DNA of 62,583 nt from an uncultured bacterium (GTDB taxonomy: Bacteria; Zhuqueibacterota; QNDG01; CAYUAG01): NCBI GenBank assembly GCA_964554015.1, contig CAZKMO010000004.1, forward strand, positions 1 through 62,583. Direction: 5' to 3'. The position numbers and the translations under genes are program-made. Of this stretch, positions 23,155 through 35,918 are shown piece after piece (the first letter of the stretch is position 1; every line of letters starts with the position of its first letter). Under the pieces are notes generated by a model. It worked only from the letters and a program-made list of their open reading frames with translations, had not been told where the DNA came from and did not search any database.

Positions 23155-24740
23155 TTACCAATTTATATTAATCTTAAAAAGGATCTCCCAACCCTTTTTA
23201 TTATTCTGACTCTTATTCTGAAAATCCTTAACCTTTAAATAGCTGACATCACAGCAGAATCTGCAGTCTTGTCGTATCTCACCAGTAATCCCTGTACTCA
23301 GTTTGTTATACCTTTCGACTATTCCAGATAAAAATTCTTTTTGTTCATTATCAGTCGTTTTATGGGGTTCCCTACGGTTACCTTCACCGTGACGGGCATA
23401 TAAATATTTTATATGAGAATAAAAGAATGAATCTATAAATTTTCTGAATTGCACAATAAAACAATCTGAATTAGGCTGAAGAAAACTTCCCAAACCGATG
23501 TTATAATTTTCAAATATATTAACTTCCTGATCATGAGTATAAACATAGGGTTCTATTCGAGTATATTCCATACGTAAATCTGAATCTTTAATTAGTAAAG
23601 GATTAATATAAAAAGCACCAAGATTCACTGCAAATTTATTACCCCAATAATCTGAAAATAATTCCCAGGGGGCAAAGAGATCATCAATAAACAATTCACC
23701 GTATACTTTACATCCCTTCAGGAGATTCAAAGCACAATCAAATCCTAAACTTACATTATCTTTATCCCCCAAAGTATGTTCGGCTATTAAATAAGGCATT
23801 ATGGGATTGAGATAGGCAACCTCTAATCCTCGTTCTCCGTAAATAACTGATTCATTTAAGCCAAGGTCAATTCTATCAGTTAGCGACACTGCTAACCGAT
23901 GAGCAGATATCCATTTGGAGGAAAAATCACTCCGCAAAGAACCATGTAACCAAATAAAGGTCACCGGTTTTAAAGTAACAGTCATTTTGAGTTGGTCAAA
24001 ATCAGGTGCTAAACCGGAAAACATCAAGCTTCCGTACTTTGATGGTCCCCACTTGACATTTTCTCTTCCAAATAAAAATTGTATTTTTTTAATATTAAAA
24101 CAAAAATAACTTTTGGAGACATCCCAGGTTGCTCCGGAACTGTCTCTGGTCGTATTGATGGGATATCCCTGGGAAGGATTATAATGTTGTATATAGGGAT
24201 CTCTTCCCCATTCAGAATAAATTCTGTTATCAGAATAAAAATGAATATTCGAGTATGATCCTCTTAAAACTGCTCCATAATAAGGTTGAAAGATATTTTC
24301 AGTTGATATTTGATTCAACTGCCTTAGAGATGATAGACCGGCTAATAAATCCAAATATAGATATGATCCTACTTGATTCCTTAAGGAATAGAAATGAATT
24401 TCCTTTAAATTTTTATCAATCTTTATTTTTTTATCAGTAATATCATCCTTAAATTCACCCTTCAGTCTTTCAAAATATTCCTTCTCAATCTGGGAAAGAC
24501 AATCCGGATGCAAATGATAATATTTATCCAGTTCAATTATATAATCAACAAACCTATTTCTGCTTAGGGGCCGGATATCATTATTAACAGATTTTAGAAT
24601 ACCTTTAGCCTCCAATCTTTCCACAAAATCATAGGCCCAATGATCTAAGGGTACATTTACTGATTGGGAATAAATAAATTGATATAGAATTAGGAAAGAT
24701 AATATTAAGATTATATATCTATTTTTTAAGATATTTTCAT
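23155..24740 (-). CDS. Capsule assembly Wzi-family outer-membrane protein with an apparent 1-nt frameshift just after the start codon
   Basis: FGRENVKWGP, ISAHRL, ESVIYG and VYGELFIDD Wzi-like motifs. The frame stays open upstream of the track start (24624) through a signal peptide and PLDHWAYDF up to 24735, but the ATG at 24740 is one base out of frame. Confidence 0.72.
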
Positions 24741-24960: not shown

Positions 24961-27900
24961 TTAATTATCCTCCTGGTGAATGGCTTCATACACCTTGTTT
25001 AAAAGATCATTTAAGGTATATGGTTTTTCCAAGAACAAATATCCCTTTTCCATTATTGTAGGCCAACGAGACTTATGATCTGTATAACCACTGCTTAGTA
25101 AAATAGCAATATCCGGCTTTTTTTTCTGGAAATCCTCAACAATGGTAATACCACTTGTATCAGGTAAAACAACATCACTTAAAACAAGATCTAATTCATC
25201 CTTCTTTTGGGAAAATATTTTTTCAGCTTCACATCCATCAGCAGCAGTAAAAACTTTATACCCGTTTCTTTCCAAGGCATGTGAGGTGAATTCACGTACT
25301 TTATCCTGATCTTCTATTATAAGAACAACTTCCCCCTGACCTTTTTGGCGATTATCATATACATGTTTTTCTGCATATTTGTGTTTCACTTCTTCTGAGG
25401 CAGTAGGAAGATAAATTTTAAAAACCGTTCCTTTAGATAATTCACTTTCTACATCTATCCAACCACTATGCTGTTTTATAATACCGTATACAACTGATAA
25501 TCCCAGACCAGTTCCTTTTCCAGGCTCCTTAGTACTAAAAAAAGGATTAAAAATGTGTTCAAGAATCTTTTTACTCATACCTATTCCACTATCTTTTAAT
25601 GTAATGCAAACAAACTTTTCAGGGGTAAATTGGGGAAGATTTATATTTTTATCCTTAATGGTTAAATTTTCAGTTGTTATAACTAATTCACCCCCGTTAG
25701 GCATGGCATCTTTGGCATTCACTGCCAGATTCATTAAAACCTGCTCTATAGTGCCCTGATCAGCATAAAGTTTCCAAAGACCATCTGCTAATTGGACAGA
25801 AACTTTGATATCCTCACCAATAACCCTATATAACATCTTACTTAAATTATCAATTAAAATATTAGCATCAAAAACTTTATATTCCATAGGATGTTTTCTG
25901 CTAAAAAGAAGTAACTGACGAATCAATCGGGAAGCACGATGTGTACACTTCTTAACTTCCATAAGATCTGAGTAAACATCTTCTTCTCGACGGACTTGCA
26001 TTAGTGCTAAATCCATACTTACTTGAATTGCTGTTAATATATTGTTAAAATCATGAGCTATACCTCCGGTAAGAACTCCGATTGCCTCCATTTTCTGGGC
26101 CTGAATGAGTTGTGCTTTTATTCTTTCATTTTCCTGTTCACTATTAACTCTATCGGTAATATCTCTGACAATTGCATATCCCTCAATAAAATTACCAGCC
26201 TGATCAAAGTGAGGTGTGGCAGTAATTATAACCTGACGATTTTCACCATCCGGCCGGTTAATCTCTATTTCATAGGAATGTGTGCCAGCCGATTTTCTAA
26301 TTTCTATCTGTTTCACAAAAAATTTATAAGTTTCAGCAGACATGTAATCTTTTACATTCTGTCCTACAAATTCCTTTTCATTAACACCAAAAATTTCACC
26401 ACCGGCTTTATTGGAAAATAAAACAGTCTGATTGCTATCAATAATTATAATTCCTTCACCTGTATTCTCAACCAGTAACCTATACTTTTCTTCACTCTCC
26501 TGCAATGCTTCTTCAGATTTTCTTTTTTCAGTAATATCTTCTAGAACCCCATCATAAAACTCAATTTCATTATTTTCATTTCTAATTGCAGTTGCTGTTA
26601 CTGAACATATTATAGGAGTTCCATCCTTTCTACACAGAAATATTATTTCATCTTTAATAAAACCAAAATTTTTCAGTATATTCTCAATAAATTCTCTATC
26701 TTCTGGTTTTTGATATAAAGACGATACTTTCTGTTTTAAGAATTCATCTTTATCCTTAAAACCAAATATAGTAAGCATACCGGAATTAACTTCAATAAAA
26801 GTGCCATCTTCTCCAGGCTCATTCCTATAAATACCAATATTAACATTTTCGGTTAAGGTTCTATATTTTTCTTCACTTTCCTTCAACTGCCTTTCTGTTT
26901 CTTTTTTGGCCTTAGCTGTTCTTAAGGTTGTAATACCAAATGCCAAGTCATCAGCCATTTCTCCTATAAGTTTTACTTCTTCTTCATCATATCCGTTGAT
27001 ATCAGCAGAGCATATATCAAGAACCCCTAACTTTTCCGATTGATATATTAATGGTAAACTTATTGACCAACAAAACCCGCATTTAGCTGCTACTTGCTTC
27101 CACTGAACTTTATCATCAACTCTACATTTTAGGTTTTGAATGTACATTTTAGAATTCACAAAAGCTTTTAGGGGAGGTGGTGGCTTTTTCCCGGAGTGAG
27201 TAATTAAATCCCAATCCAAGCTATCCAGATATCCGTTATCCTCTCCTGCTTGAGCGACAGGGATGATTTTATCTTTATCATTTTTATCCGGGAATCCGAC
27301 CCAGACAAATTTATATCCTCCGATACCGACTAATAAATTACATATATCACGTAATAAAGTCTCCTCCTTATTGGCTCTTACCAGAGAACGGTTACAGGCT
27401 CCCAATGCTTTTATGGAACGGTTCAGACGCAGCATCTTCTTTTCATTTTCCTTACGTTCAGAAACATCTTTAAACACTAAAACCATACCATTAACATTTC
27501 CATCATCATCTTTAATGGCGGCCACACTATTATCTATGGGGATCTCTTTATTATCTTTACTGATGAGAAGAGTATGATTTGCTAAATTCCATATAATTCC
27601 TTGTTCAATAACCTGTTTTATGGGTGACTCCACAGGTTTACGATCCCTTTCACTGATGATTTTTATATAATCAGTCAAGTGCTTTTTATAAACCTCTTTT
27701 AAGCTCCAACCGGAGAGTCTTTCAGCCATGGGATTCATAAAGGTTATGTTACCCTGAACATCAGTGGATATAACAGCATCCCCGATACATTTTAAAGTAA
27801 TGGAAAGACGTTTTTCATTTTGCCGGATTCTTTTCTGGGTTTCATATTTATACAAAGCAATTTCAATAGTAGATTTTAATTCACGTTTAGTATATGGTTT

Positions 27901-28215
27901 AATCAAATAACCATAGGGATCTGCATTTTTAACCCGATTAACAGTGGACTCATCCGAGTAAGCAGTTAAAAAAACTATAGGCAAATCATATTTTTTATTA
28001 ATGCTCTCGGCTGCCTTAATACCATCTACCTTCCCTTTTAATTTAATATCCATTAAAATAAGATCCGGATATAACTCATCAACCTGTTTAATGGCATCTT
28101 CTCCATAGTTTATGGTATCACAAACTGCATATCCAAATTCATTTAACTGATTGCTCAGTTCCATAGCCACAATGTCATCATCTTCCACAATAAGTATTTT
28201 CTTTTGTTCACTCAT
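24961..28215 (-). CDS. Cytoplasmic hybrid sensor kinase (REC-PAS-GAF-PAS-PAS-HisKA-HATPase-REC)
   Basis: N- and C-terminal receiver domains (VEDD/DIKL and IEDQ/DVVLP); H-box GGIAHDFNNIL; NLAVNAKDAM; GKGTGLGLS; no TM segments. Confidence 0.93.
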   Translation of the reverse strand: MSEQKKILIVEDDDIVAMELSNQLNEFGYAVCDTINYGEDAIKQVDELYPDLILMDIKLKGKVDGIKAAESINKKYDLPIVFLTAYSDESTVNRVKNADPYGYLIKPYTKRELKSTIEIALYKYETQKRIRQNEKRLSITLKCIGDAVISTDVQGNITFMNPMAERLSGWSLKEVYKKHLTDYIKIISERDRKPVESPIKQVIEQGIIWNLANHTLLISKDNKEIPIDNSVAAIKDDDGNVNGMVLVFKDVSERKENEKKMLRLNRSIKALGACNRSLVRANKEETLLRDICNLLVGIGGYKFVWVGFPDKNDKDKIIPVAQAGEDNGYLDSLDWDLITHSGKKPPPPLKAFVNSKMYIQNLKCRVDDKVQWKQVAAKCGFCWSISLPLIYQSEKLGVLDICSADINGYDEEEVKLIGEMADDLAFGITTLRTAKAKKETERQLKESEEKYRTLTENVNIGIYRNEPGEDGTFIEVNSGMLTIFGFKDKDEFLKQKVSSLYQKPEDREFIENILKNFGFIKDEIIFLCRKDGTPIICSVTATAIRNENNEIEFYDGVLEDITEKRKSEEALQESEEKYRLLVENTGEGIIIIDSNQTVLFSNKAGGEIFGVNEKEFVGQNVKDYMSAETYKFFVKQIEIRKSAGTHSYEIEINRPDGENRQVIITATPHFDQAGNFIEGYAIVRDITDRVNSEQENERIKAQLIQAQKMEAIGVLTGGIAHDFNNILTAIQVSMDLALMQVRREEDVYSDLMEVKKCTHRASRLIRQLLLFSRKHPMEYKVFDANILIDNLSKMLYRVIGEDIKVSVQLADGLWKLYADQGTIEQVLMNLAVNAKDAMPNGGELVITTENLTIKDKNINLPQFTPEKFVCITLKDSGIGMSKKILEHIFNPFFSTKEPGKGTGLGLSVVYGIIKQHSGWIDVESELSKGTVFKIYLPTASEEVKHKYAEKHVYDNRQKGQGEVVLIIEDQDKVREFTSHALERNGYKVFTAADGCEAEKIFSQKKDELDLVLSDVVLPDTSGITIVEDFQKKKPDIAILLSSGYTDHKSRWPTIMEKGYLFLEKPYTLNDLLNKVYEAIHQEDN

Positions 28216-28271
28216 CAATTGTTACCCTATATTTAATTAATCATTACATATTTATATTGTATCATTTGATT

Positions 28272-28826
28272 TTATATATCAGTTACTGTATAGATCACCG
28301 TTGTTTGATAGGTATCACTGTCAACTACACCCGAGAGAAGTTGGAGCTGGAGCTGATTTTCAATCCCCTTGAGTTTTTTATCCCCTTGGAAAAATTCTGT
28401 ATCTGTAGTTGTGATTTCTTGATAGGAGGTTCCTCCGGTAACAGTGCCCCCTCCTGCACTCCCATCACTGGTTCTTCTTACATTAAGACGAAAATCACTA
28501 TTCCAGGTAATATCACTTCGTCTGACATATAAAATCCATCCATTAACTTTCTTCCCGTCAATATCTATTATAATCTGATCTACTAAACTCTCATAGCTGT
28601 TATTAAGTGGTGAACCAGGTCCTCCAAGTAGATCGGTCACACTAATGTTAAGTGCCCAGCTCCCGGTTACGGTTACGCCAGCCTGGGCTCGCAGAGTAGA
28701 AGGAAGTACGATGCATAAACTGATTAATATAATCCCTAAAGAGAATACCTTTACTTTTAGGTTATAAATTCCAGAGAAACTTGATATAGCTGACTTCCTA
28801 TTACATATGTTTTTTCTTCCATACAA
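28272..28826 (-). CDS. Putative minor fimbrial subunit (paralog of 32532..33080)
   Basis: Signal peptide ending LRA-Q; shares GGTSY..ITTTDTEFF.G and C-terminal TY.TT..YT..D with its paralog. TTG start uncertain. Confidence 0.6.
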   Translation of the reverse strand: MYGRKNICNRKSAISSFSGIYNLKVKVFSLGIILISLCIVLPSTLRAQAGVTVTGSWALNISVTDLLGGPGSPLNNSYESLVDQIIIDIDGKKVNGWILYVRRSDITWNSDFRLNVRRTSDGSAGGGTVTGGTSYQEITTTDTEFFQGDKKLKGIENQLQLQLLSGVVDSDTYQTTVIYTVTDI

Positions 28827-28849
28827 TTATTACATCCACTAATAGATTT

Positions 28850-31723
28850 TTACTCATAATTAAATTTAAGGCCAGCACTTTTTTCTCTGGTTCTCTTTTC
28901 AATTTCTTCCTTGGATTTTTGTTTTAAAGTACCGCCCGAATTCTTAAATCTAATTGTTCTCTTGATTTGAAATACTCTCAACTGAATTTCCTTGCTCTCT
29001 CCGGGATTAAGTTCAACATTCAGCACTTCCTTTTCAAATTTATGATAGGGCGGCAAATTATCATCATACAACTTGACTCTCCAGGTCCCGGGTTTCAGTT
29101 CCCTGAACTCAAATTTTCCCAGTGCATCCGTAATATTTCTTAACACTTTATCACCATTCTGTATTTCCACAATAATATTGGGCACTCCCCCGTTTCTATA
29201 AAGAGAGCTTCCGTCTTTCCCTTCACCTACCAGATAATATTTTCTTTGAGAATCTTGATTATCCTCAATAATTATTTGTTTTTTATATAATGAATCTTCC
29301 TTGCTGACATATTTAAAAATATTGATCTTACCTGATATGACTGCCCCTTTTACAATATCAATCTTAAATTCATTTTCTTGGGATGGATGCACTTCCAGAG
29401 TAATGGGGGTATCCGGAACAGTTACCTTATCCAATCCGATAGTGGCCCTGTCAATACTTAATAGATATTTACCCGGATTTAAGGCAGGAAATTTAAATTT
29501 ACCCTTGTCATCGGTTACTACCGAAAAATTATTAAGTCGAATAACTACATTTTTTAAAGGCTCTTGCGTTTCCATATCATATACATGTCCGGATACTGAT
29601 CCTACATAGGTTTTTAATCCCAGAGGAATATGAAAGGGAGCTTGATAGTTGAACAGGATAGCAGTTTCTTTCTTATCGATGGAATTTTTAAGCAGAGTCT
29701 GTCTGCATTGCAGGGATATTCTGTGATTATTGGGAAATTTGTATCTAATATAACCTTCCAATAAATCACGGTTGGTGTAATAATCTTCCGTGGAGGCATT
29801 GGTTTTATAGCGGAGAGAGCAATATAGTTTATCTGAAATGGTAATATCACAATCCACTCCCAGAGTCCAGCGCTTACTGTTACCAATTCTATATATCGAA
29901 CTTTCATCATACATGGCATAAAAATTATATTTTTGCCATTTGTTTACATAGAGTAAAGATGAAAATCTATACCGACTCATTTTTGAGGTTTTATCAGTTA
30001 TTTTATTATAGGACTCTCCTAAATTGGTATAGAAAGAAAATCCAAAATAATTAAATCGGGAATTCATTTGAAACACCAATCCGCTTTCGTCATAATCAAA
30101 AAGACGGGCAGGTAATCGATCCTCACTGCTTCTTTTTCTGGCCAGACAACTTAATCGTAAACTCGACCGCAGGTTATAATTAATACCAAATGAATACTGT
30201 TTGGTATAAGGAGCTGAATAGCGAGTGGTATCAAGTTCAAAATTTCTTTTTTGATTCTGTATTCTTCCGGTTAAGCGGAGGTTATTTATTACGGGTACAC
30301 TTAAATTTGCCGTGACATACTTTGTATCCCGGTAATAACCGGGGAAATCCCTGGTAGCATAAATATAGCGCAGGGAATAGGCAAATCCTTTTTCCAAACC
30401 GGTCAGATCAAGAAGGTGAGCATATTCTGTATTGCTGTTTTTATTACTGAAAGCGGTTTCAAGCTTAATATCAGTATCCTTTAACACTCTAAAATTCCCT
30501 TCCACACTGTAAATATCATTGACCTGCTCTTCTTCCTTTTTATTTAAATAATTGATACCAATTATGTTTTTTTTATTAATAAAAAAATCTACAAATCCGG
30601 CAATTTCTCTGGTGGGCCCGAACATCCACCTTGATTTCTCATAATACCCGCCCATCTGAAACCTACCCAAACTCACACTGCCCTCTGCCCCTCTACCATA
30701 CCGTGAGTTTTCAGTTAAATTGGACAGGGAATATCGAAAATCACCCACTTTAATACTATAGGCATCAGTATGATAATGAACATTATATTCATCATATTTG
30801 GCTAAAACTGACTTACCGTACGCACTGGGACTTCTAATGTGAAAAGCTAGATTTTTCTTTCCTTTTTCATCCAATTCCCCCTCTCCTTTCACATCGAATT
30901 GATACCCGTATTTTTCTTTCTGATTAAAGGTACTGAAAGCTCTTACAGCAGTATGAAGGGGAAAATATCTGTAGGGCAATGATCGTTTTATATTCTTGGG
31001 AATTATTATGACCTGGGAAGAAACCATGGTCATCACTTCTTCCTTGGCTTTTGAGAGTATCTTGGCAAAAATTACCTGTTTGATTTGTTTCTTAATATTT
31101 TTATCTGATGTTATCTTAACCGGTATCTCAATACTTTCACCAGCATTTAGTGAATATTCATAGGTATCTATTACCAGTTCAAGATCATCATGATTGCTAA
31201 TCGCAATCCTGAATTCTTCGGTTTGATTACTCCAGTTTTTAACTCGATAAAGGATAGAATAGATATCACCAGCAATAGCATAATCGGTCTTTTTAATTAC
31301 CTTTATATCCAATTTCCTCACTGACATCACCACCACGGTAAATGAGTATAGATCACTAATAGAAGGATTATCTCGGGAGTGAACTCTATAGGTTAGGGTA
31401 TATTTACCGGCCAGGGCAAAACTTGGAATATGAAAGCTGACAAGTTTTATTTCGGTCTGATTTTCGGACAAGGAAAACGGAAACTCTCTGGTAATTATTT
31501 TCCATCCCTCCGGAAGCTTTAATTCTGCTATAAACTCTTGTTCCGGACTGGAGATATTAGTTACCCGAAAAGCAGTAGTAACCACACTTTTGGGTTCAGC
31601 TTCAATAAGTTCTTCTCCGGTCGGTCTTACTTCGATTTCATTTGAGTTTTCCCCTCTAAGCTCGGAATAAGAAAGCAAAGCCATTAAAAAGAAAAGAAAA
31701 AATTTTGCAACTGTTCTGATCAT
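28850..31723 (-). CDS. Large outer-membrane usher-like protein (N-terminal Ig-like domains, beta-barrel, C-terminal carboxypeptidase-regulatory/Cna-B-like domains)
   Basis: Signal peptide; two FRVTN/YRVKN Ig-like repeats; long amphipathic beta-strand region; GSVSGHVYD..T..PL...VIRL...TDDKGKFKF..L.PGKY and TDALGKFEF..LKPGTW domains. Confidence 0.65.
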   Translation of the reverse strand: MIRTVAKFFLFFLMALLSYSELRGENSNEIEVRPTGEELIEAEPKSVVTTAFRVTNISSPEQEFIAELKLPEGWKIITREFPFSLSENQTEIKLVSFHIPSFALAGKYTLTYRVHSRDNPSISDLYSFTVVVMSVRKLDIKVIKKTDYAIAGDIYSILYRVKNWSNQTEEFRIAISNHDDLELVIDTYEYSLNAGESIEIPVKITSDKNIKKQIKQVIFAKILSKAKEEVMTMVSSQVIIIPKNIKRSLPYRYFPLHTAVRAFSTFNQKEKYGYQFDVKGEGELDEKGKKNLAFHIRSPSAYGKSVLAKYDEYNVHYHTDAYSIKVGDFRYSLSNLTENSRYGRGAEGSVSLGRFQMGGYYEKSRWMFGPTREIAGFVDFFINKKNIIGINYLNKKEEEQVNDIYSVEGNFRVLKDTDIKLETAFSNKNSNTEYAHLLDLTGLEKGFAYSLRYIYATRDFPGYYRDTKYVTANLSVPVINNLRLTGRIQNQKRNFELDTTRYSAPYTKQYSFGINYNLRSSLRLSCLARKRSSEDRLPARLFDYDESGLVFQMNSRFNYFGFSFYTNLGESYNKITDKTSKMSRYRFSSLLYVNKWQKYNFYAMYDESSIYRIGNSKRWTLGVDCDITISDKLYCSLRYKTNASTEDYYTNRDLLEGYIRYKFPNNHRISLQCRQTLLKNSIDKKETAILFNYQAPFHIPLGLKTYVGSVSGHVYDMETQEPLKNVVIRLNNFSVVTDDKGKFKFPALNPGKYLLSIDRATIGLDKVTVPDTPITLEVHPSQENEFKIDIVKGAVISGKINIFKYVSKEDSLYKKQIIIEDNQDSQRKYYLVGEGKDGSSLYRNGGVPNIIVEIQNGDKVLRNITDALGKFEFRELKPGTWRVKLYDDNLPPYHKFEKEVLNVELNPGESKEIQLRVFQIKRTIRFKNSGGTLKQKSKEEIEKRTREKSAGLKFNYE

Positions 31724-31726
31724 TTT

Positions 31727-32539
31727 CTACTTTATCTCTAAGGTATAATCTAATCCAAATAAATCGTCCTCTCCGCAGTCGGCAATAATAATGGTTTTAT
31801 AGGTTCCTGGCTCAACTTCGCTGATATCCATTCTTTTTCTAATGGAAGTCCCTGGAAAAGTACGGGCCACTTCTGCTTCAAAAATACCGATTTTTTCCCC
31901 GGTAGAGTCGTAGAGTTCCGCCCATACAGATGGCCGCACTAACCGTTCTCCTGTATTCTTAATATCGACCAATAAAATTCTTTTCTCGTTATCCTTCATT
32001 AGATTCACATCAAAAAACTCAATATTTTTCTCTCCGGTATTGCCGATATTGGTAACTATCTGTATACCGTACCGGATAACAGTATTAACCGTTACCCCTT
32101 CCTTCTGTTCCGGTACTATTTCTTTGGCCGGTTCCACCAATAACATGCTCCAATACGTACCCGATAAAGTATCAATAACAGGTACCTGTACAATATAGTT
32201 TACAGTAACCTCTGAATTACCCGGAATGTAAAAACGGGTGGGTGTATAGGTTATCCAGGCTGCATTGGACCGTTCAATAGTTCCTGGTGCCGGATAATCT
32301 GAGGTCCCATCATAATAAAATACATAATCTCTCTGATATACCCTTACCAAGGCTGAATCCGGTCCAATATTACGTACAGTAATGGTACCACTCTCACTAT
32401 TCCCGGATAAAATATTTTGTTCATAAGTCAATTCTCCGGCAATGACAACCTGACTTTGAGAAAACAGCGCCGAATTAATTACAAATAAGAAACAAAAGAT
32501 TATATGCTTTATAAAAATTTTTTTATTCATTTTACTCAT
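31727..32539 (-). CDS. Putative periplasmic fimbrial chaperone (two Ig-like domains; PapD/DUF916-like)
   Basis: Signal peptide; GTITVRN..., SNAAWITYTP, GTYWSMLLVEP, RYGIQI and NTGER...RP pattern; overlaps the upstream stop codon. Confidence 0.7.
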   Translation of the reverse strand: MSKMNKKIFIKHIIFCFLFVINSALFSQSQVVIAGELTYEQNILSGNSESGTITVRNIGPDSALVRVYQRDYVFYYDGTSDYPAPGTIERSNAAWITYTPTRFYIPGNSEVTVNYIVQVPVIDTLSGTYWSMLLVEPAKEIVPEQKEGVTVNTVIRYGIQIVTNIGNTGEKNIEFFDVNLMKDNEKRILLVDIKNTGERLVRPSVWAELYDSTGEKIGIFEAEVARTFPGTSIRKRMDISEVEPGTYKTIIIADCGEDDLFGLDYTLEIK

Positions 32540-33080
32540 CTCTTATAGTATAATAAATTGTTGTAGAATAGGTTTGAGAAGGCAGAGTTGCTGATACACC
32601 TCTGATGCGATATTGTATGGGAATATCTGTTACCGAAAATGAGCCCAGCCATCCTAAATTTCCACTTATCTGACCTGAAAAAAATTCAGTATCAGTAGTA
32701 GTAATATTCATATAACTTGTCCCTCCGGAAATGGAATAACTACTTTGATTGCATGTGCCGTCTCCGGTTCTTCTCGCATCTATTAATAAATCTGTATGCC
32801 AGACAACATCTTGTCTATGTATATCAACAGCCCAATTCCAGGTTTTATATCCTGGGAATAAATACAATCTATAAATTTCCACTAGTACCGGATCTCCCGG
32901 ATCACTTGTATACGTACCATTTAAATTACTTCCGGCTCCTCCTTGCAGATCTGCCTGGGTTATATATAGATCCCAATCACCGGTTATGGTAAGAGTTGTC
33001 AATATTTGCGATTTTACCTCACCTGTACAGAACAATAACAGAAGAAGAATTAATAAAAATTTTTTACTACTTTCATACAT
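32532..33080 (-). CDS. Putative minor fimbrial subunit (paralog of 28272..28826)
   Basis: Signal peptide ending VKS-Q; GGTSYMNITTTDTEFFSG; C-terminal TYSTTIYYTIRDE. Alternative start at 33086. Confidence 0.62.
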   Translation of the reverse strand: MYESSKKFLLILLLLLFCTGEVKSQILTTLTITGDWDLYITQADLQGGAGSNLNGTYTSDPGDPVLVEIYRLYLFPGYKTWNWAVDIHRQDVVWHTDLLIDARRTGDGTCNQSSYSISGGTSYMNITTTDTEFFSGQISGNLGWLGSFSVTDIPIQYRIRGVSATLPSQTYSTTIYYTIRDE

Positions 33081-33099
33081 ACACATTCACCCAATCTTA

Positions 33100-33154
33100 A
33101 AAAGGGGAAGTATTTGATCCATAAACTTATCAACATAAACACTTCCCCTTTTTA
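33100..33154 (-). terminator. Intra-operon stem-loop after the major subunit gene
   Basis: Perfect 13-bp arms AAAAAGGGGAAGT / ACTTCCCCTTTTT; ends in U5 on the coding strand. Confidence 0.7.
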
Positions 33155-33179
33155 GCTGCAGTATTCTTCTTAATAAGAA

Positions 33180-33749
33180 TTATTCATCAACTATAGTATA
33201 AGTAATAGTATGAGTAGTATTTGATGTCTCCAAAGAACTAGGATCAGCAGGAATATCTACAACATAATCCAGATTAGCACCACTGGTATTATTAACTCCG
33301 GTCCAACAACTTTCAATACTGGTTATAAGATCCATAGCTGCTCCGCCGTCAAGTGTCTGGGTACTGCCAGTCCCCTGATCACCGGCACCGTCACCGCCGA
33401 TGGTAGCAGTTACATTAAGATCAATTGCAGCAGGCACGGCATCACCAGCCGTAATTTGAGATGTAATTTTTTGAGGTGTTGAAGATGCGGTTAATACAGT
33501 ATAGCGTAAATATAAACTATTGTCAGATGGATCTGTAATAGCATCTCCGGGATTAGAGGGGTCAGCTACGGTAATGGTCAGGGTTTGTCCTGAAAAGCTG
33601 GAACCATCGCTGCCATCATATACACCCAGAAGTCGAATTGTGGGAATACTGATGGTTACATCATGATTATCTGATTGGGCAAAAACACCGCCAGCAAAAC
33701 ATACTAGTAATAATGCGGCAGTAACCAAATAAGTAAATCTTTTCTTCAT
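33180..33749 (-). CDS. Putative major fimbrial subunit
   Basis: AAGGAGGT RBS; signal peptide ending VFA-Q; alternating N-terminal strand HDVTISIP; rich in Thr, Gly, Asp and Ser; C-terminal TITYTIVDE; first gene of the cluster. Confidence 0.65.
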   Translation of the reverse strand: MKKRFTYLVTAALLLVCFAGGVFAQSDNHDVTISIPTIRLLGVYDGSDGSSFSGQTLTITVADPSNPGDAITDPSDNSLYLRYTVLTASSTPQKITSQITAGDAVPAAIDLNVTATIGGDGAGDQGTGSTQTLDGGAAMDLITSIESCWTGVNNTSGANLDYVVDIPADPSSLETSNTTHTITYTIVDE

Positions 33750-33869
33750 CGGTTTTACCTCCTTGTTAATGAGTTCGTTATACATTAAATTCAAAGTTGT
33801 CACCTCCTTCCAATTTTTTATTTTTCATTATCTCTTTACATTTACTTTTTTTACCTTCACTCCCATATC

Positions 33870-33885
33870 ATCAAATAGTGTGCCA
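33870..33885 (-). promoter_or_regulatory. Probable sigma54 promoter of the fimbrial cluster
   Basis: TGGCACACTATTTGAT: perfect TGGCAC -24 element and correct GG-N10 spacing, with GA instead of GC at -12. Confidence 0.5.
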
Positions 33886-34499
33886 AACTTTATTTTTTAC
33901 CAATTTATTACGTAAATGTAACAATTCCTTACTAAATAAATTTCCAATTATTTTAATAAGTAAAATTTATCAATATAATGAGTAAATAGATAAAATTGAA
34001 CAGGTTAGGGAAAATTTTATCCTTCTAATAATTAAATAATTAATTATATTTAAGATATTAAAAAATAGATACTTATTAAACATATTATTAAAATAATATT
34101 AAAAATGAATATTATATAATATAAGTGTAAATCTTTTATTTATATTAGGGAGAAATATTTACCTGATTTAAGGAATTGAGGATATATAAAATAAATTTTA
34201 CTAAATTATGAATTCTTTTTTGGTAAACTTTCAAAATGAATATTTTTCTTTCACTTTGAAAGTCAATCACTTTTTATGATTATTGATAAATATCTGATTC
34301 TAAAGATATTATACATAAAATTGTAAACTCAAATTTCTAAAAAGAAAATTGCATCACCTAGACAAAAACCTGGTTCCTGCCGGAGAGGAAAATCCAAAAT
34401 CAATATAAACTAAGAAGATTGCTTCCCTCTCCTTGTTCTATCTTAAAGTAAGAGAGGAATCATTAATATCCCCTAAATTTACTAAACCAGTTTCCTGTT

Positions 34500-35918
34500 T
34501 TATTGGGAAACATTCCTTAACTGATTTAAAAAAGTTGGATCATTTTGAAGGCTTTTACCTTCTGCTACTAATTTATTTCCCCTGCTAGTAAGGGTACGTA
34601 AAGCAATAAATTTATTATAATTATGCTTATGTAAGGGAAAAATGGAATTATTAGTTAAAATAGGATCGTTGGTTTCAGATAATAAACCAATCTTGATGGA
34701 CTCATACCAGTATTTTGTACCTGGTATAGGTGAATACGATGCCAAGGAAACCTTGATATCCTGTTCATACACAAATAGCATACTATCAATTATTTCATGA
34801 AAATCTTGATGTGGGAGCCCCATTAAAATATAGGCACTGATATCTTTATTTTTAAATCCGGCTTTTATTAAATTATCTATAGCCGTACATAAATCGTCAT
34901 TAGTTACTTTAGAACATAATTCTTTTTGCCTTTTTATATTTACCGATTCATAACTTAAATTAATTTTTTTGAATCCGGCAGTTTTCATTAAACTGGCAAC
35001 GGATCTGTCAACCTCACGAGTTTGTATACCATTGGGAATGTGAAAATGAATATTTAAATTTTTATCAATTATTTCCTGTAATAAGGGAATAATATGCTCA
35101 TCTTTTTTATAAAGAAGAGCATCATCATAAAAGGCAAATTCAACGACTCTCAGTTCACAATTTAAATATATAATTTCCTGAATAATTTTGTTAATACTTC
35201 TCCTACGATATTTACCGGAAAGAATATTGGAAGCACATACCGGACAATTAAAAGGACACCCTCTTGAACTCAATAAAGCCACACTCTCAAGAGAAGTATA
35301 CAAATCATAAGCAGGAATAGGATAGTCATCCAAACCTTTATATTTTTCCCAAGCGGAGGAATTTCCGGTTAACTGATCCACTATTTTTAAAGTTTCGACT
35401 TCACCTTCACCTGATATAACATAATCAGCTCCGGATACTTTTTGAGCATGTTCATAACACAAGGTTACATAAATTCCTCCCAGAACCACTGGAATCTTAG
35501 GAAAGATACTTTTTAACAGTTCTATAATTTGTATAACACCAGGATACCAGTAGGTCATGGAAGAAGAAACTAAAATAACATCAGGAGAATTTAAATTTTT
35601 TATCTGATTGCGAACTAAGGTATAGGGTAAGCCATATCTGCTGTAATAGCGAGGTACCCATTTTAGGGAAGCAGGTTTTTCAATATTTGTTTTTAAAAAA
35701 TGCCCGGTTCCATCTCTTTTTAATCTCTTGTTTCTATTGAGATTAGATAATAAATTAGAATTACGATCCAAACAATCAAGAAGAGTTACCTGATAATTAT
35801 TTTCCCGAAGAATATTAGCAATAATAAGAAAACCAAGGGGTTTGATCCAGAAATCATAGGCGGCAAAATCAATAATCCAGGGATTAACCAGAAGAATATT
35901 TGCCTTATAAAAAGACAA
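34500..35918 (-). CDS. B12-binding domain radical SAM protein
   Basis: N-terminal cobalamin-binding fold (SSSMTYWYPGV, VVLGGIY); SRGCPFNCPVC (CxxxCxxC). Confidence 0.88.
   Translation of the reverse strand: MSFYKANILLVNPWIIDFAAYDFWIKPLGFLIIANILRENNYQVTLLDCLDRNSNLLSNLNRNKRLKRDGTGHFLKTNIEKPASLKWVPRYYSRYGLPYTLVRNQIKNLNSPDVILVSSSMTYWYPGVIQIIELLKSIFPKIPVVLGGIYVTLCYEHAQKVSGADYVISGEGEVETLKIVDQLTGNSSAWEKYKGLDDYPIPAYDLYTSLESVALLSSRGCPFNCPVCASNILSGKYRRRSINKIIQEIIYLNCELRVVEFAFYDDALLYKKDEHIIPLLQEIIDKNLNIHFHIPNGIQTREVDRSVASLMKTAGFKKINLSYESVNIKRQKELCSKVTNDDLCTAIDNLIKAGFKNKDISAYILMGLPHQDFHEIIDSMLFVYEQDIKVSLASYSPIPGTKYWYESIKIGLLSETNDPILTNNSIFPLHKHNYNKFIALRTLTSRGNKLVAEGKSLQNDPTFLNQLRNVSQ

What the first reader, a model, noticed from the sequence alone, without database searches (positions are those of the whole stretch)
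28272..33885. Five-gene non-canonical chaperone-usher-like fimbrial system
Seen in sequence: a tightly packed minus-strand operon. It encodes a secreted 189-aa subunit (QSDNHDVTISIP...TITYTIVDE), a second secreted subunit, a two-domain chaperone-like protein, a 957-aa outer-membrane protein and a third secreted subunit. The two minor subunits are clear paralogs (GGTSY..ITTTDTEFF.G), and all three subunits end in T-x-x-Y-T-[IV]-x-D-[EI]. Established: chaperone-usher pili polymerise by donor-strand exchange using an alternating N-terminal strand and a conserved C-terminal strand. Gram-positive WxL proteins end in a similar strand (TITWTL) and pair with DUF916 chaperones. Inference: this is a diderm pilus or surface-fibre assembly system between those two families, with an usher I cannot match to FimD/PapC/CfaC. 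It is the best candidate for an undescribed system in this window.
Basis: partly seen in the sequence, partly recalled or inferred. Interest (0 to 1): 0.85.

Follow-up and report, generated by a model that had tools for sequence, protein, structure and literature searches.

The report
Usher-like surface assembly operon, WxLIP-type chaperone
This five-gene operon looks like an undescribed, widespread kind of outer-membrane export and assembly system for small surface proteins, in which the periplasmic partner is a distant relative of a Gram-positive cell-surface protein (WxLIP/DUF916) and the outer-membrane pore has the shape of a pilus usher.

Summary
Five tightly packed minus-strand genes (A 33180-33749, B 32532-33086, C 31727-32539, D 28850-31723, E 28272-28826) all carry signal peptides.

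B and E are paralogues (34% identity, E 6e-25). A joins them only at profile level (hhalign 93%). All three end in T-x-T-[YFW]-T-[LIV]-x-[DE].

C is a remote but significant homologue of Gram-positive WxLIP (DUF916+DUF3324):
- Its family profile hits PDB 9i25_C/9i1y at E 2.4e-5.
- hhalign gives 93% over both domains.
- It lacks WxLIP's membrane anchor.

D has no usher sequence signature. Its AlphaFold2 model (pLDDT 84) shows 2 β-sandwich domains, about 24-26 barrel strands, then 2 more β-sandwich domains. Its best PDB matches are FimD and PapC ushers (E 1e-15 to 1e-8; TM only 0.3-0.43).

The order subunit(s)-C-D recurs in at least 295 species genomes from many diderm phyla. A terminator-like hairpin after the first subunit gene is typical across loci.

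None of the parts belongs by sequence to the classical chaperone-usher families, and I found no literature on this system. Fibre formation and donor-strand exchange remain untested because the subunit model failed (pLDDT 44).

Verdict: a new variant of the chaperone-usher kind, linked by evolution to WxL clusters.

The parts
33871..33885 (-). Sigma-54-type -24/-12 promoter-like element (TGGCAC-N5-TTGA), about 120 nt upstream of gene A
   Evidence: Read. It matches the consensus at 9 of 10 positions. Similar elements lie upstream of the first subunit gene in 15 of 71 related loci, against a background of 0.014 per region. An NtrC-like response regulator is adjacent in 21 of 79 loci. Function is inferred only.
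33180..33749 (-). Gene A: major, a-type secreted subunit, 189 aa. The signal peptide ends at VFA|QSDNH. It has a conserved N-terminal strand H-x-V-x-I-x-I-P and ends in THTITYTIVDE.
   Evidence: RBS plus ATG; homologues and invariant residues; motifs. It has no Pfam, NCBIfam or PDB sequence match. It is the first gene and is followed by an attenuator hairpin.
33098..33154 (-). Terminator or attenuator-like hairpin with a U-run, between A and B
   Evidence: RNA fold gives dG -29.2 kcal/mol and z -5.2, with 0 of 200 shuffles as good. A hairpin plus T-run occurs in the gap after the first subunit gene in 35 of 43 related loci, against 11 of 31 for other gaps.
32532..33086 (-). Gene B: minor, m-type secreted subunit, 184 aa. 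It has an N-terminal T-G-D-W-D-L motif and ends in YSTTIYYTIRDE.
   Evidence: paralogue of E; homologous to a-type at profile level; C-terminal strand resembles the second motif of WxL domains, z 8.9.
31727..32539 (-). Gene C: periplasmic two-domain Ig-like protein, 270 aa. It is a remote homologue of Gram-positive WxLIP (DUF916+DUF3324) without the C-terminal membrane helix, and is the proposed chaperone.
   Evidence: a large family; PF06030 and PF11797 weak hits; PDB 9i25_C/9i1y_A, E 2.4e-5; hhalign 93%, 227 columns. It shows no PapD signal.
28850..31723 (-). Gene D: 957-aa outer-membrane protein with usher-like architecture
   Evidence: The AF2 model has pLDDT 83.9. Foldseek's top hits are FimD and PapC ushers at E 1.4e-15 to 1e-8. 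It has no Usher Pfam hit and no hhalign signal to E. coli ushers.
31001..31636 (-). D residues 30-241: two tandem N-terminal beta-sandwich domains, presumed periplasmic
   Evidence: Secondary structure. The two domains are duplicates (hhalign 93%). The second resembles domain 1 of C (81%, E 1e-5). Weak FixG_C and NPCBM_assoc hits.
29615..30973 (-). D residues 251-703: beta-barrel of about 24-26 strands. The family's most conserved stretch, GDxxYSLSxLTExxRYGRG, lies near residues 327-345.
   Evidence: DSSP strand list, invariant columns, conservation print. The best pore-only matches are FimD 3ohn_A (TM 0.43) and PapC 2vqi_A (TM 0.39).
28967..29602 (-). D residues 708-919: two C-terminal transthyretin/CarboxypepD_reg-like beta-sandwich domains
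   Evidence: Pfam PF13620, PF17802 and PF17210. Secondary structure. The two are duplicates of each other (hhalign 97.5%).
28272..28826 (-). Gene E: second m-type minor subunit, 184 aa, a paralogue of B. It is lineage-specific.
   Evidence: It is absent from the 74%-identical relative, whose operon is A-B-C-D followed directly by the kinase.
24961..28218 (-). Hybrid sensor kinase (REC-PAS-GAF-PAS-HisKA-HATPase-REC) immediately downstream. It is a possible regulator, and the association is tentative.
   Evidence: Pfam. It is conserved as the gene right after D in the close relative L097/L098. It is not part of the conserved core in distant loci.

Best explanation
The operon encodes a chaperone/usher-type export and assembly pathway for small beta-rich surface subunits, built from parts that are not sequence relatives of the classical Fim/Pap parts.

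Proposed steps:
1. A, B and E are exported by Sec.
2. In the periplasm they are captured by C, a soluble two-Ig-domain relative of Gram-positive WxLIP. C probably stabilises them by lending a beta-strand to an incomplete sandwich. The candidate donor is the near-invariant RYGIQIVT strand that ends domain 1.
3. C-subunit complexes dock on the periplasmic beta-sandwich domains of D.
4. D, a 24-26-stranded outer-membrane barrel, passes the subunits to the cell surface.
5. On the surface, A (made in excess thanks to the attenuator after its gene) forms the bulk of a fibre or surface array. The m-type subunits B and E act as minor parts, such as tip, adaptor or anchor.

Shown: the homology of C to WxLIP, the usher-like predicted fold of D, the subunit family and its C-terminal motif, the conserved gene order, and the attenuator.

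Inferred: strand donation, passage through D, polymerisation, and the role of each subunit.
For: - C is homologous to WxLIP.
- WxLIP is predicted to insert a strand into a gap of the WxL sandwich (PMC10599100). A WxL:WxLIP complex is deposited as PDB 9i25.
- D: the model has pLDDT 83.9 with an Ig-Ig-barrel-Ig-Ig layout. The eight best PDB matches are all FimD, and PapC follows. They are 4-8 orders of magnitude better in E-value than LptD or porins.
- Synteny of subunit(s)-C-D holds in 71/75 and 66/69 loci across many phyla.
- There are several paralogous small subunits per operon.
- All five proteins have signal peptides.
- An attenuator follows the first subunit gene here and in 35 of 43 loci, as expected for a major structural subunit.
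- The Gram-positive cluster order, small WxL then WxLIP then large WxL, mirrors subunit then C.
- The m-type C-terminal strand resembles WxL motif 2 (z 8.9).
Against: - There is no usable subunit structure (pLDDT 43.7), so an open donor-strand groove is unproven.
- TM-scores of D to ushers are modest (0.29-0.43). No plug domain inserted in the barrel is evident.
- There is no sequence-level link to PapD, Usher or Fimbrial families: hhalign is at most 2%, equal to reversed controls, and Pfam finds none.
- Subunit-to-WxL similarity is limited to about 24 residues. A broader HMM enrichment proved compositional.
- No two-domain adhesin-like subunit was seen in any locus.
- There are no experimental data for any member.
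Confidence: 0.6

Rival explanations
1. It uses the same export route through C and D, but the product is not a polymer. The subunits form a defined hetero-oligomeric cell-surface complex, a diderm version of the Gram-positive Csc/WxL complex. This would sit on or near D and serve in adhesion or substrate binding.
For: - The closest sequence relative of C belongs to a system described as a surface complex rather than a fibre (PMC10599100, PMC9772566).
- All subunits are small single-domain proteins.
- There is no evidence of polymerisation.
Against: - The attenuator after the first subunit gene in most loci implies a large stoichiometric excess of one subunit.
- An usher-like pore is otherwise known from fibre assembly.
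- The subunit number varies from 1 to 6 per locus.
Confidence: 0.22
2. D is a large uptake or export channel for a non-protein substrate such as a polysaccharide or nutrient. C and the small proteins would then be periplasmic or surface accessory binding proteins, and the usher likeness would be convergent.
For: - D also matches LptD, AlgE, OccK porins and TonB-dependent receptors at E around 1e-6 to 1e-7.
- A Wzi-like capsule-assembly outer-membrane protein lies nearby.
- TM-scores to ushers are below 0.5.
Against: - Full-length ushers rank clearly first.
- No glycosyltransferase, polysaccharide-export or TonB-system gene is conserved next to the core.
- C's homologue binds WxL proteins, not glycans alone.
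- The tight coupling with several paralogous secreted proteins is typical of protein assembly systems.
Confidence: 0.08
3. It is an ordinary member of an already described chaperone-usher clade (alpha, beta, gamma, kappa, pi or sigma) that is simply too diverged for quick recognition.
For: - The overall operon logic matches: major subunit, attenuator, minors, chaperone, usher, extra subunit.
- JGI named one C homologue 'PapD'.
- There are marginal profile hits of the subunits to CfaE and FimG (E 2e-3 to 0.085).
Against: - No Usher, PapD_N, PapD_C, Fimbrial or SCPU Pfam hit appears in 78 C, 31 D and 113 subunit sequences, even at E 0.1.
- hhalign against E. coli chaperones, ushers and pilins is no better than reversed controls.
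- C instead matches WxLIP significantly.
- The CfaE alignment does not put the C-terminal strands in register.
Confidence: 0.05

Closest known systems
Gram-positive WxL / Csc cell-surface clusters: small WxL, WxLIP (DUF916+DUF3324) and large WxL, as in E. faecium locus A and PDB 9i25/9i1y
   Same: - C is a significant remote homologue of WxLIP over both Ig-like domains.
- A small secreted partner gene sits directly upstream of it in both systems.
- The partners are 160-190 aa, beta-rich, and end in an aromatic-x-[LIV] strand: STLTWTLxDAP in WxL against TVTYTLTD or TVTWTLTD here.
- The m-type subunits also carry an N-terminal G-x-W-x-L motif.
- W-to-Y variants also exist in a Gram-positive cluster (L089).
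   Different: - C has no C-terminal transmembrane helix and lacks the NQIDKxxxYFDLK motif.
- The diderm operon adds a 957-aa outer-membrane usher-like protein.
- There is no LPXTG protein and no large multi-domain WxL protein.
- The subunits do not hit Pfam WxL, and their profile similarity to WxL is limited to the last 24 or so residues.
- The hosts are environmental diderm phyla rather than Lactobacillales and Bacillales.
Classical chaperone-usher pili: FimC/FimD/FimA-H and PapD/PapC
   Same: - The operon logic is the same: major subunit first with an attenuator, then minors, a two-Ig-domain periplasmic protein, a large outer-membrane barrel flanked by beta-sandwich domains, and extra subunits downstream.
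- D's predicted structure matches FimD and PapC best in the PDB.
- The subunits have a beta-strand right at the mature N-terminus and a T/hydrophobic alternating C-terminal strand.
   Different: - There is no detectable sequence homology for the chaperone, the usher or the pilins.
- D has two N-terminal and two C-terminal domains of other families (CARDB/FixG_C-like and CarboxypepD_reg).
- D has about 26 predicted strands rather than 24, and no inserted plug domain.
- There is no two-domain adhesin.
Archaic (sigma) chaperone-usher pili: Csu, CupE and spore-coat-U (SCPU) subunits
   Same: - The phylogenetic distribution is wide and extends beyond Proteobacteria.
- The subunits are small, and several paralogues occur per operon.
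- From my own knowledge, the C-terminal strand has an aromatic-x-x-T-h-T-h pattern.
   Different: No SCPU, PapD or Usher Pfam hit appears in any member scanned. I did not test this by structure.

Membership tests
Chaperone-usher pathway (as defined by the usher, Pfam PF00577, with PapC_N/PapC_C) | The outer-membrane usher is detectable as PF00577 or by profile similarity to known ushers | tested here: not met
   There is no Usher hit at E<=1 for D or at E<=0.1 in 31 family members. hhalign of D against 6 E. coli ushers gives 1%, equal to the reversed control.
Chaperone-usher pathway | Usher architecture: a large (24-strand) barrel with periplasmic N- and C-terminal beta-sandwich domains and a plug | tested here: inconclusive
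   The AF2 model shows Ig-Ig-barrel (about 26 strands)-Ig-Ig. FimD and PapC are the top Foldseek hits at E 1e-15 to 1e-8, but TM is only 0.29-0.43. No inserted plug domain is seen. I could not inspect coordinates.
Chaperone-usher pathway | PapD-like periplasmic chaperone (PF00345/PF02753) | tested here: not met
   PapD_N and PapD_C are not among the families reported for the 78 members at E<=0.1; the 25 most frequently hit of 35 families were listed. hhalign of C against 8 E. coli chaperones gives 0.8%. C is two Ig-like domains by homology to WxLIP.
Chaperone-usher pathway | Subunits with an incomplete Ig fold completed by donor-strand complementation or exchange | not testable with these tools
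   The only subunit model had pLDDT 43.7. Covariation was uninformative.
WxL cluster (WxL + WxLIP) | WxLIP protein with a DUF916 (PGBD) domain followed by a DUF3324 (HBD) domain | tested here: met
   PF06030 hits 21 of 78 members (best 3.2e-6) and PF11797 hits 5 of 78. The family profile hits PDB EfmWxLIP1 at E 2.4e-5. hhalign gives 93%, E 3e-7, over 227 columns spanning both domains, against 0.4% for the reversed control. The homology is remote, below Pfam gathering thresholds for the window protein itself.
WxL cluster (WxL + WxLIP) | WxLIP C-terminal transmembrane helix | tested here: not met
   C ends at ...DYTLEIK directly after domain 2, and family members are 260-285 aa. Gram-positive WxLIPs are 333-376 aa with a hydrophobic C-terminal helix.
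WxL cluster (WxL + WxLIP) | Partner proteins carry a WxL domain (Pfam PF13731) with two W-x-L motifs | tested here: inconclusive
   None of 113 subunits hits PF13731. hhalign aligns only the C-terminal motif, at 12% for m-type and 1-2% for a-type. That motif match is well above block-shuffled nulls for m-type (z 8.9) but not for a-type (z 2.1). The m-type has G-x-W-x-[LE] near its N-terminus.
WxL cluster (WxL + WxLIP) | Monoderm host, with peptidoglycan-associated display and often an LPXTG partner | tested here: not met
   The loci carry an outer-membrane protein and come from Planctomycetota, Bacteroidota, Desulfobacterota, Ignavibacteria, Zixibacteria, Spirochaetota and other phyla. No LPXTG gene is conserved nearby.
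Type V (FimA/Mfa) pili, TasA/camelysin fibres, curli | Family-specific Pfam domains (P_gingi_FimA, Peptidase_M73, Curlin_rpt/CsgG), and a lipoprotein signal for type V | tested here: not met
   No such Pfam hit appears. The subunit signal peptides end in A|Q-type signal peptidase I sites without a lipobox cysteine.

The most novel reading that the evidence does not exclude
This is a seventh, deeply branching chaperone-usher-type pathway. It polymerises WxL-like subunits by strand complementation, and its periplasmic chaperone shares ancestry with Gram-positive WxLIP. If so, the enigmatic WxL/DUF916 clusters of Lactobacillales and Bacillales would be the monoderm counterpart of a diderm fibre-assembly machine: an usher-less version with a membrane-anchored chaperone. 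Donor-strand-type assembly would then span the monoderm/diderm divide.
Probability: 0.4. Interest if true: 0.9.

Novelty: new variant of a known kind. Interest (0 to 1): 0.78.

Why it matters
- It would add a widespread surface-structure assembly system that is so far unannotated. It occurs in at least 295 species genomes and has hundreds to thousands of protein clusters. The hosts are environmental phyla whose adhesion and biofilm biology is poorly known: Planctomycetota, Ignavibacteria, Zixibacteria, KSB1, Desulfobacterota and Prolixibacteraceae.
- It gives a concrete mechanistic hypothesis for Gram-positive WxLIP/DUF916 proteins, namely that they act as strand-donating chaperones or anchors. 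Their role in enterococcal, listerial and lactobacillar surface biology is still unclear.
- It shows an usher-like pore that arose with, or diverged to, entirely different flanking domains. That is useful for understanding how ushers gate and hand over subunits.
- Two cultured carriers make the system experimentally testable: Draconibacterium sediminis JN14CK-3 and Tangfeifania diversioriginum DSM 27063.

Tried and rejected
1. AF2 model of subunit A from an 11-sequence MSA. It gave pLDDT 43.7 and is unusable, so I ran no fold search on it.
2. First hhalign run. It was in global mode with signal peptides left in, which inflated the scores (the C-versus-subunit control reached 47%). I discarded it and redid it trimmed and in local mode.
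3. WxL-HMM rank enrichment of subunits among 2584 locus ORFs. It looked striking (21 of the top 25), but reversed-HMM controls were nearly as enriched. The effect is compositional and I rejected it as evidence.
4. Subunit-profile hits to the CfaE pilin domain (E 2e-3) and FimG (0.085). Domain i-Evalues are 0.02-0.06 and the alignment is not in register with the C-terminal strand, so I treat it as inconclusive.
5. hhalign of C, D and the subunits against E. coli K-12 chaperones, ushers and pilins. There was no signal above reversed controls.
6. Mean-field DCA on a-type and m-type subunit alignments (Meff about 100 and 50). The top pairs were alignment or subfamily artefacts, with no strand ladders.
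7. PDB sequence searches with the single proteins found nothing.
8. Taxonomic labelling of the window through cluster names gave no names. The closest assembly is an unnamed MAG.
9. The generic promoter and terminator scan was not enriched over shuffles, and it missed the long-loop hairpin.

Full report
**Observation**

- Gene A is best started at the ATG at 33749, which follows an AAGGAGG ribosome-binding site.
- Gene E has only one in-frame start, TTG 28826.
- The genes are tightly coupled: B and C overlap by 8 nt, C and D are 3 nt apart, and D and E are 23 nt apart.
- All five products begin with signal-peptide-like sequences.
- B and E are clear paralogues (34% identity, E 6e-25).
- A is related to them only at profile level (pairwise E 0.05; family-to-family hhalign 93%, E 4e-7).
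- The shared C-terminal motif is real. Across related loci it generalises to T-[VIL]-T-[YFWL]-T-[LIV]-x-[DE], and some members read TWTL.

**Databases**

Pfam and NCBIfam recognise nothing in A, B, C or E. In D they find only generic beta-sandwich domains: weak CARDB/FixG_C-like hits at the N-terminus and CarboxypepD_reg/SpaA/SdrD_B at the C-terminus. The central 450 or so residues are unassigned. Single-sequence searches of PDB sequences find nothing.

**Distribution and synteny**
- C has 84 close homologues, and D has 34 over a wider range of identity. Almost all come from metagenomes or MAGs labelled only 'bacterium'.
- A profile of C finds 7060 representative clusters at E<=1e-3 and 799 at E<=1e-30.
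- A scan of one genome per species finds 295 matches. They come from KSB1, Zixibacteria, Ignavibacteria, Planctomycetota, Desulfobacterota, Spirochaetota, Armatimonadota, Krumholzibacteriota, Verrucomicrobiota and a few 'Clostridia/Bacillota' MAGs, and above all from Prolixibacteraceae (Bacteroidota). The Prolixibacteraceae include the cultured Tangfeifania diversioriginum DSM 27063 and Draconibacterium sediminis JN14CK-3.
- In the 79 loci fetched, iterated HMMs recover the same parts in the same order: 1-5 subunit genes, then C, then D, then 0-2 more subunit genes.
- D follows C in 71 of 75 evaluable loci, and a subunit gene precedes C in 66 of 69.
- A 74%-identical relative has A-B-C-D and then the same hybrid kinase, with no E. 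So E is a lineage-specific extra copy.

**What C is**
- Scanning all 78 aligned C homologues against Pfam gives recurrent weak hits. PF06030 (WxLIP_PGBD, formerly DUF916) is hit by 21 members (best 3.2e-6). PF11797 (WxLIP_HBD, formerly DUF3324) is hit by 5 members. No PapD family appears.
- The C profile hits exactly one kind of solved structure, EfmWxLIP1 (9i25 chain C and 9i1y, E 2.4e-5).
- I fetched ten Gram-positive WxL clusters from plasmids. After trimming signal peptides and membrane anchors, hhalign of the C family against WxLIP gives 93% probability and E 3e-7 over 227 columns covering both domains. The reversed control gives 0.4%.
- C therefore belongs to the WxLIP superfamily. It lacks WxLIP's C-terminal transmembrane helix, so it should be a soluble periplasmic protein.
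- The literature describes WxLIP as two perpendicular Ig-like domains. AlphaFold predicts that one of its hairpin strands inserts, in parallel, into a gap of the WxL beta-sandwich (PMC10599100).
- PDB 9i25 also contains a 'WxL domain surface protein' chain, so a complex structure exists.

**What D is**
- An AlphaFold2 model built on a 31-sequence MSA is confident (pLDDT 83.9, pTM 0.57).
- It shows a signal peptide, two N-terminal beta-sandwich domains (residues 30-132 and 138-241), 26 consecutive strands (251-703, two of them short), two C-terminal beta-sandwich domains (708-806 and 840-919), and a short terminal helix.
- Foldseek against the PDB ranks FimD in the first eight places (E 1.4e-15 to 2e-11), and PapC follows (5e-10 to 1e-8). 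These are ahead of LptD (about 2e-7) and the porins (about 1e-6).
- TM-scores are modest: 0.29-0.38 for full-length ushers, and 0.43 and 0.39 for the FimD and PapC pore domains.
- At sequence level D is not an usher: it has no PF00577 hit, and hhalign against six E. coli ushers equals the reversed control.
- The two N-terminal domains are duplicates of each other, and so are the two C-terminal domains. The second N-terminal domain resembles domain 1 of C (81%).
- I conclude that D has an usher-like architecture. I do not conclude that it is a member of the usher family.

**What the subunits are**
- Individually and as a profile they match no Pfam family, including WxL.
- Their profile gives only marginal PDB hits, to the CfaE pilin domain and FimG. 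I regard these as inconclusive because the alignment is not in register.
- Against real WxL domains, hhalign aligns only the last 24 or so residues...Y-S-T-T-V-x-Y-T-V-x-D against ...Y-x-S-T-L-T-W-x-L-x-x-x-P. The probability is 12% for m-type and 1-2% for a-type.
- That local match is far above block-shuffled nulls for the m-type (z 8.9; global z 3.8) but not for the a-type (z 2.1).
- The m-type subunits also start with ...T-G-x-W-x-[LE]-x-I, which is reminiscent of WxL motif 1.
- One genuine Gram-positive cluster protein has Y in place of W in both motifs.
- A seemingly strong enrichment of subunits among WxL-HMM hits vanished under a reversed-HMM control, so I discarded it.
- The AF2 model of A failed (pLDDT 43.7), so the fold is not established and neither is the presence of an open groove. 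Covariation analysis was uninformative.

**Regulation and stoichiometry**
- A strong hairpin with a U-run lies between A and B (dG -29.2 kcal/mol, z -5.2).
- Across loci, the gap after the first subunit gene is long (median 120 nt, against 21 nt for other gaps). It carries a terminator-like hairpin in 35 of 43 cases, against 11 of 31 for other gaps.
- This is the arrangement expected when the first gene encodes a major structural subunit that is needed in excess.
- A sigma-54-type -24/-12 element lies about 120 nt upstream of A. Similar elements occur upstream of the first subunit gene in 15 of 71 loci, where about 1 is expected by chance. NtrC-like regulators are adjacent in 21 of 79 loci.

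**Mechanism proposed**
1. Sec exports the subunits.
2. C captures them in the periplasm and, by analogy with WxLIP and with PapD-like chaperones, completes their fold with a donated strand. The candidate is the near-invariant RYGIQIVT strand that ends domain 1.
3. D's periplasmic domains receive the complexes, and its barrel passes the subunits outward.
4. A forms the bulk of a fibre or surface array, and B and E are minor components.

Only the component identities, the architecture, the synteny and the attenuator are shown. Strand donation, translocation and polymerisation are inferred. I put 0.6 on the export and assembly pathway as stated, and about 0.4 on true donor-strand polymerisation into a fibre.

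**Comparison and novelty**
- The system works like a chaperone-usher pathway but fails every sequence-based membership test for it.
- Its chaperone-like protein is a member of the WxLIP superfamily. It lacks the membrane anchor, the host range and the LPXTG or large-WxL partners of WxL clusters.
- Literature searches for WxL, DUF916 or WxLIP together with ushers, donor strands or diderms returned only Gram-positive work.
- I therefore rate it a new variant of a known kind. It is of high interest because it links two systems that had not been connected, and because it is widespread and testable in cultured strains.

Noticed in passing
window 33871-33885 (-); loci L009, L011, L016, L017, L022, L039, L053 and others: A sigma-54-type -24/-12 element lies upstream of the first subunit gene in the window and in 15 of 71 related loci (background 0.014 per region). 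NtrC-like response regulators are adjacent in 21 of 79 loci. No sigma-54 activator was identified in the window itself.
   Followed up: partly
window 24961-28218 (-): A hybrid REC-PAS-GAF-PAS-HisKA-HATPase-REC kinase starts 53 nt after E. In the 74%-identical relative it starts 30 nt after D, so it may be co-transcribed with the operon or regulate it.
   Followed up: partly
window 33180-33749 (-), residue His29 of A; a-type subunits in L001-L079: The a-type subunits keep a histidine 4-6 residues after the signal-peptide cleavage site (S-D-N-H-D-V-T-I...; H29 is invariant in the A4 alignment). The reason is unknown. It might bind a metal or be a processing or recognition cue.
   Followed up: no
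window 28850-31723 (-), D residues 275-345: The most conserved stretch of the D family (Q275, G280, G282, L284, F294, P299, Y313, G327, D328, L336, G343, R344, G345; GDxxYSLSxLTExxRYGRG) includes two short strands between barrel strands 2 and 3. It could be a lumen-folded gating hairpin standing in for the usher plug. I could not inspect coordinates.
   Followed up: no
window 28850-31723 (-), D residues 136-245 versus C (31727-32539): D's second N-terminal domain resembles domain 1 of C (hhalign 81%, E 1e-5) and, weakly, the N-domain of FimC (23%). The two N-terminal domains are duplicates of each other, and so are the two C-terminal domains.
   Followed up: partly
L041 1518-11489: One MAG contig carries two tandem, near-identical copies of the whole a-m-C-D unit.
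   Followed up: no
L017, L043, L059, L078: Loci labelled Clostridia or Bacillota MAGs also carry the outer-membrane protein D. They are either diderm Bacillota or mis-binned contigs.
   Followed up: no
hit H1, CP069367.1 101767-102277: A plasmid record labelled Klebsiella pneumoniae encodes a protein 94% identical to Enterococcus faecium WxLIP1, with no annotation there. It is probably a mislabelled or contaminating enterococcal sequence.
   Followed up: no
window 23155-24624 (-): A Wzi-like capsule-assembly outer-membrane protein lies two genes downstream of the operon. It is conserved in the close relative L097 and supports a diderm envelope.
   Followed up: no
window 33804-34499: A roughly 700-bp, very AT-rich non-coding stretch separates gene A from the upstream B12-binding radical SAM gene (34500-35918). 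That is unusually long for this gene-dense window.
   Followed up: no
L089 4021-4608 (L. plantarum plasmid): A Gram-positive Csc-cluster 'cell surface protein' in the small-WxL position has Tyr instead of Trp in both WxL motifs (GYTI..., IDYNIS). So the W-to-Y change seen in the diderm subunits also occurs inside bona fide WxL clusters.
   Followed up: partly
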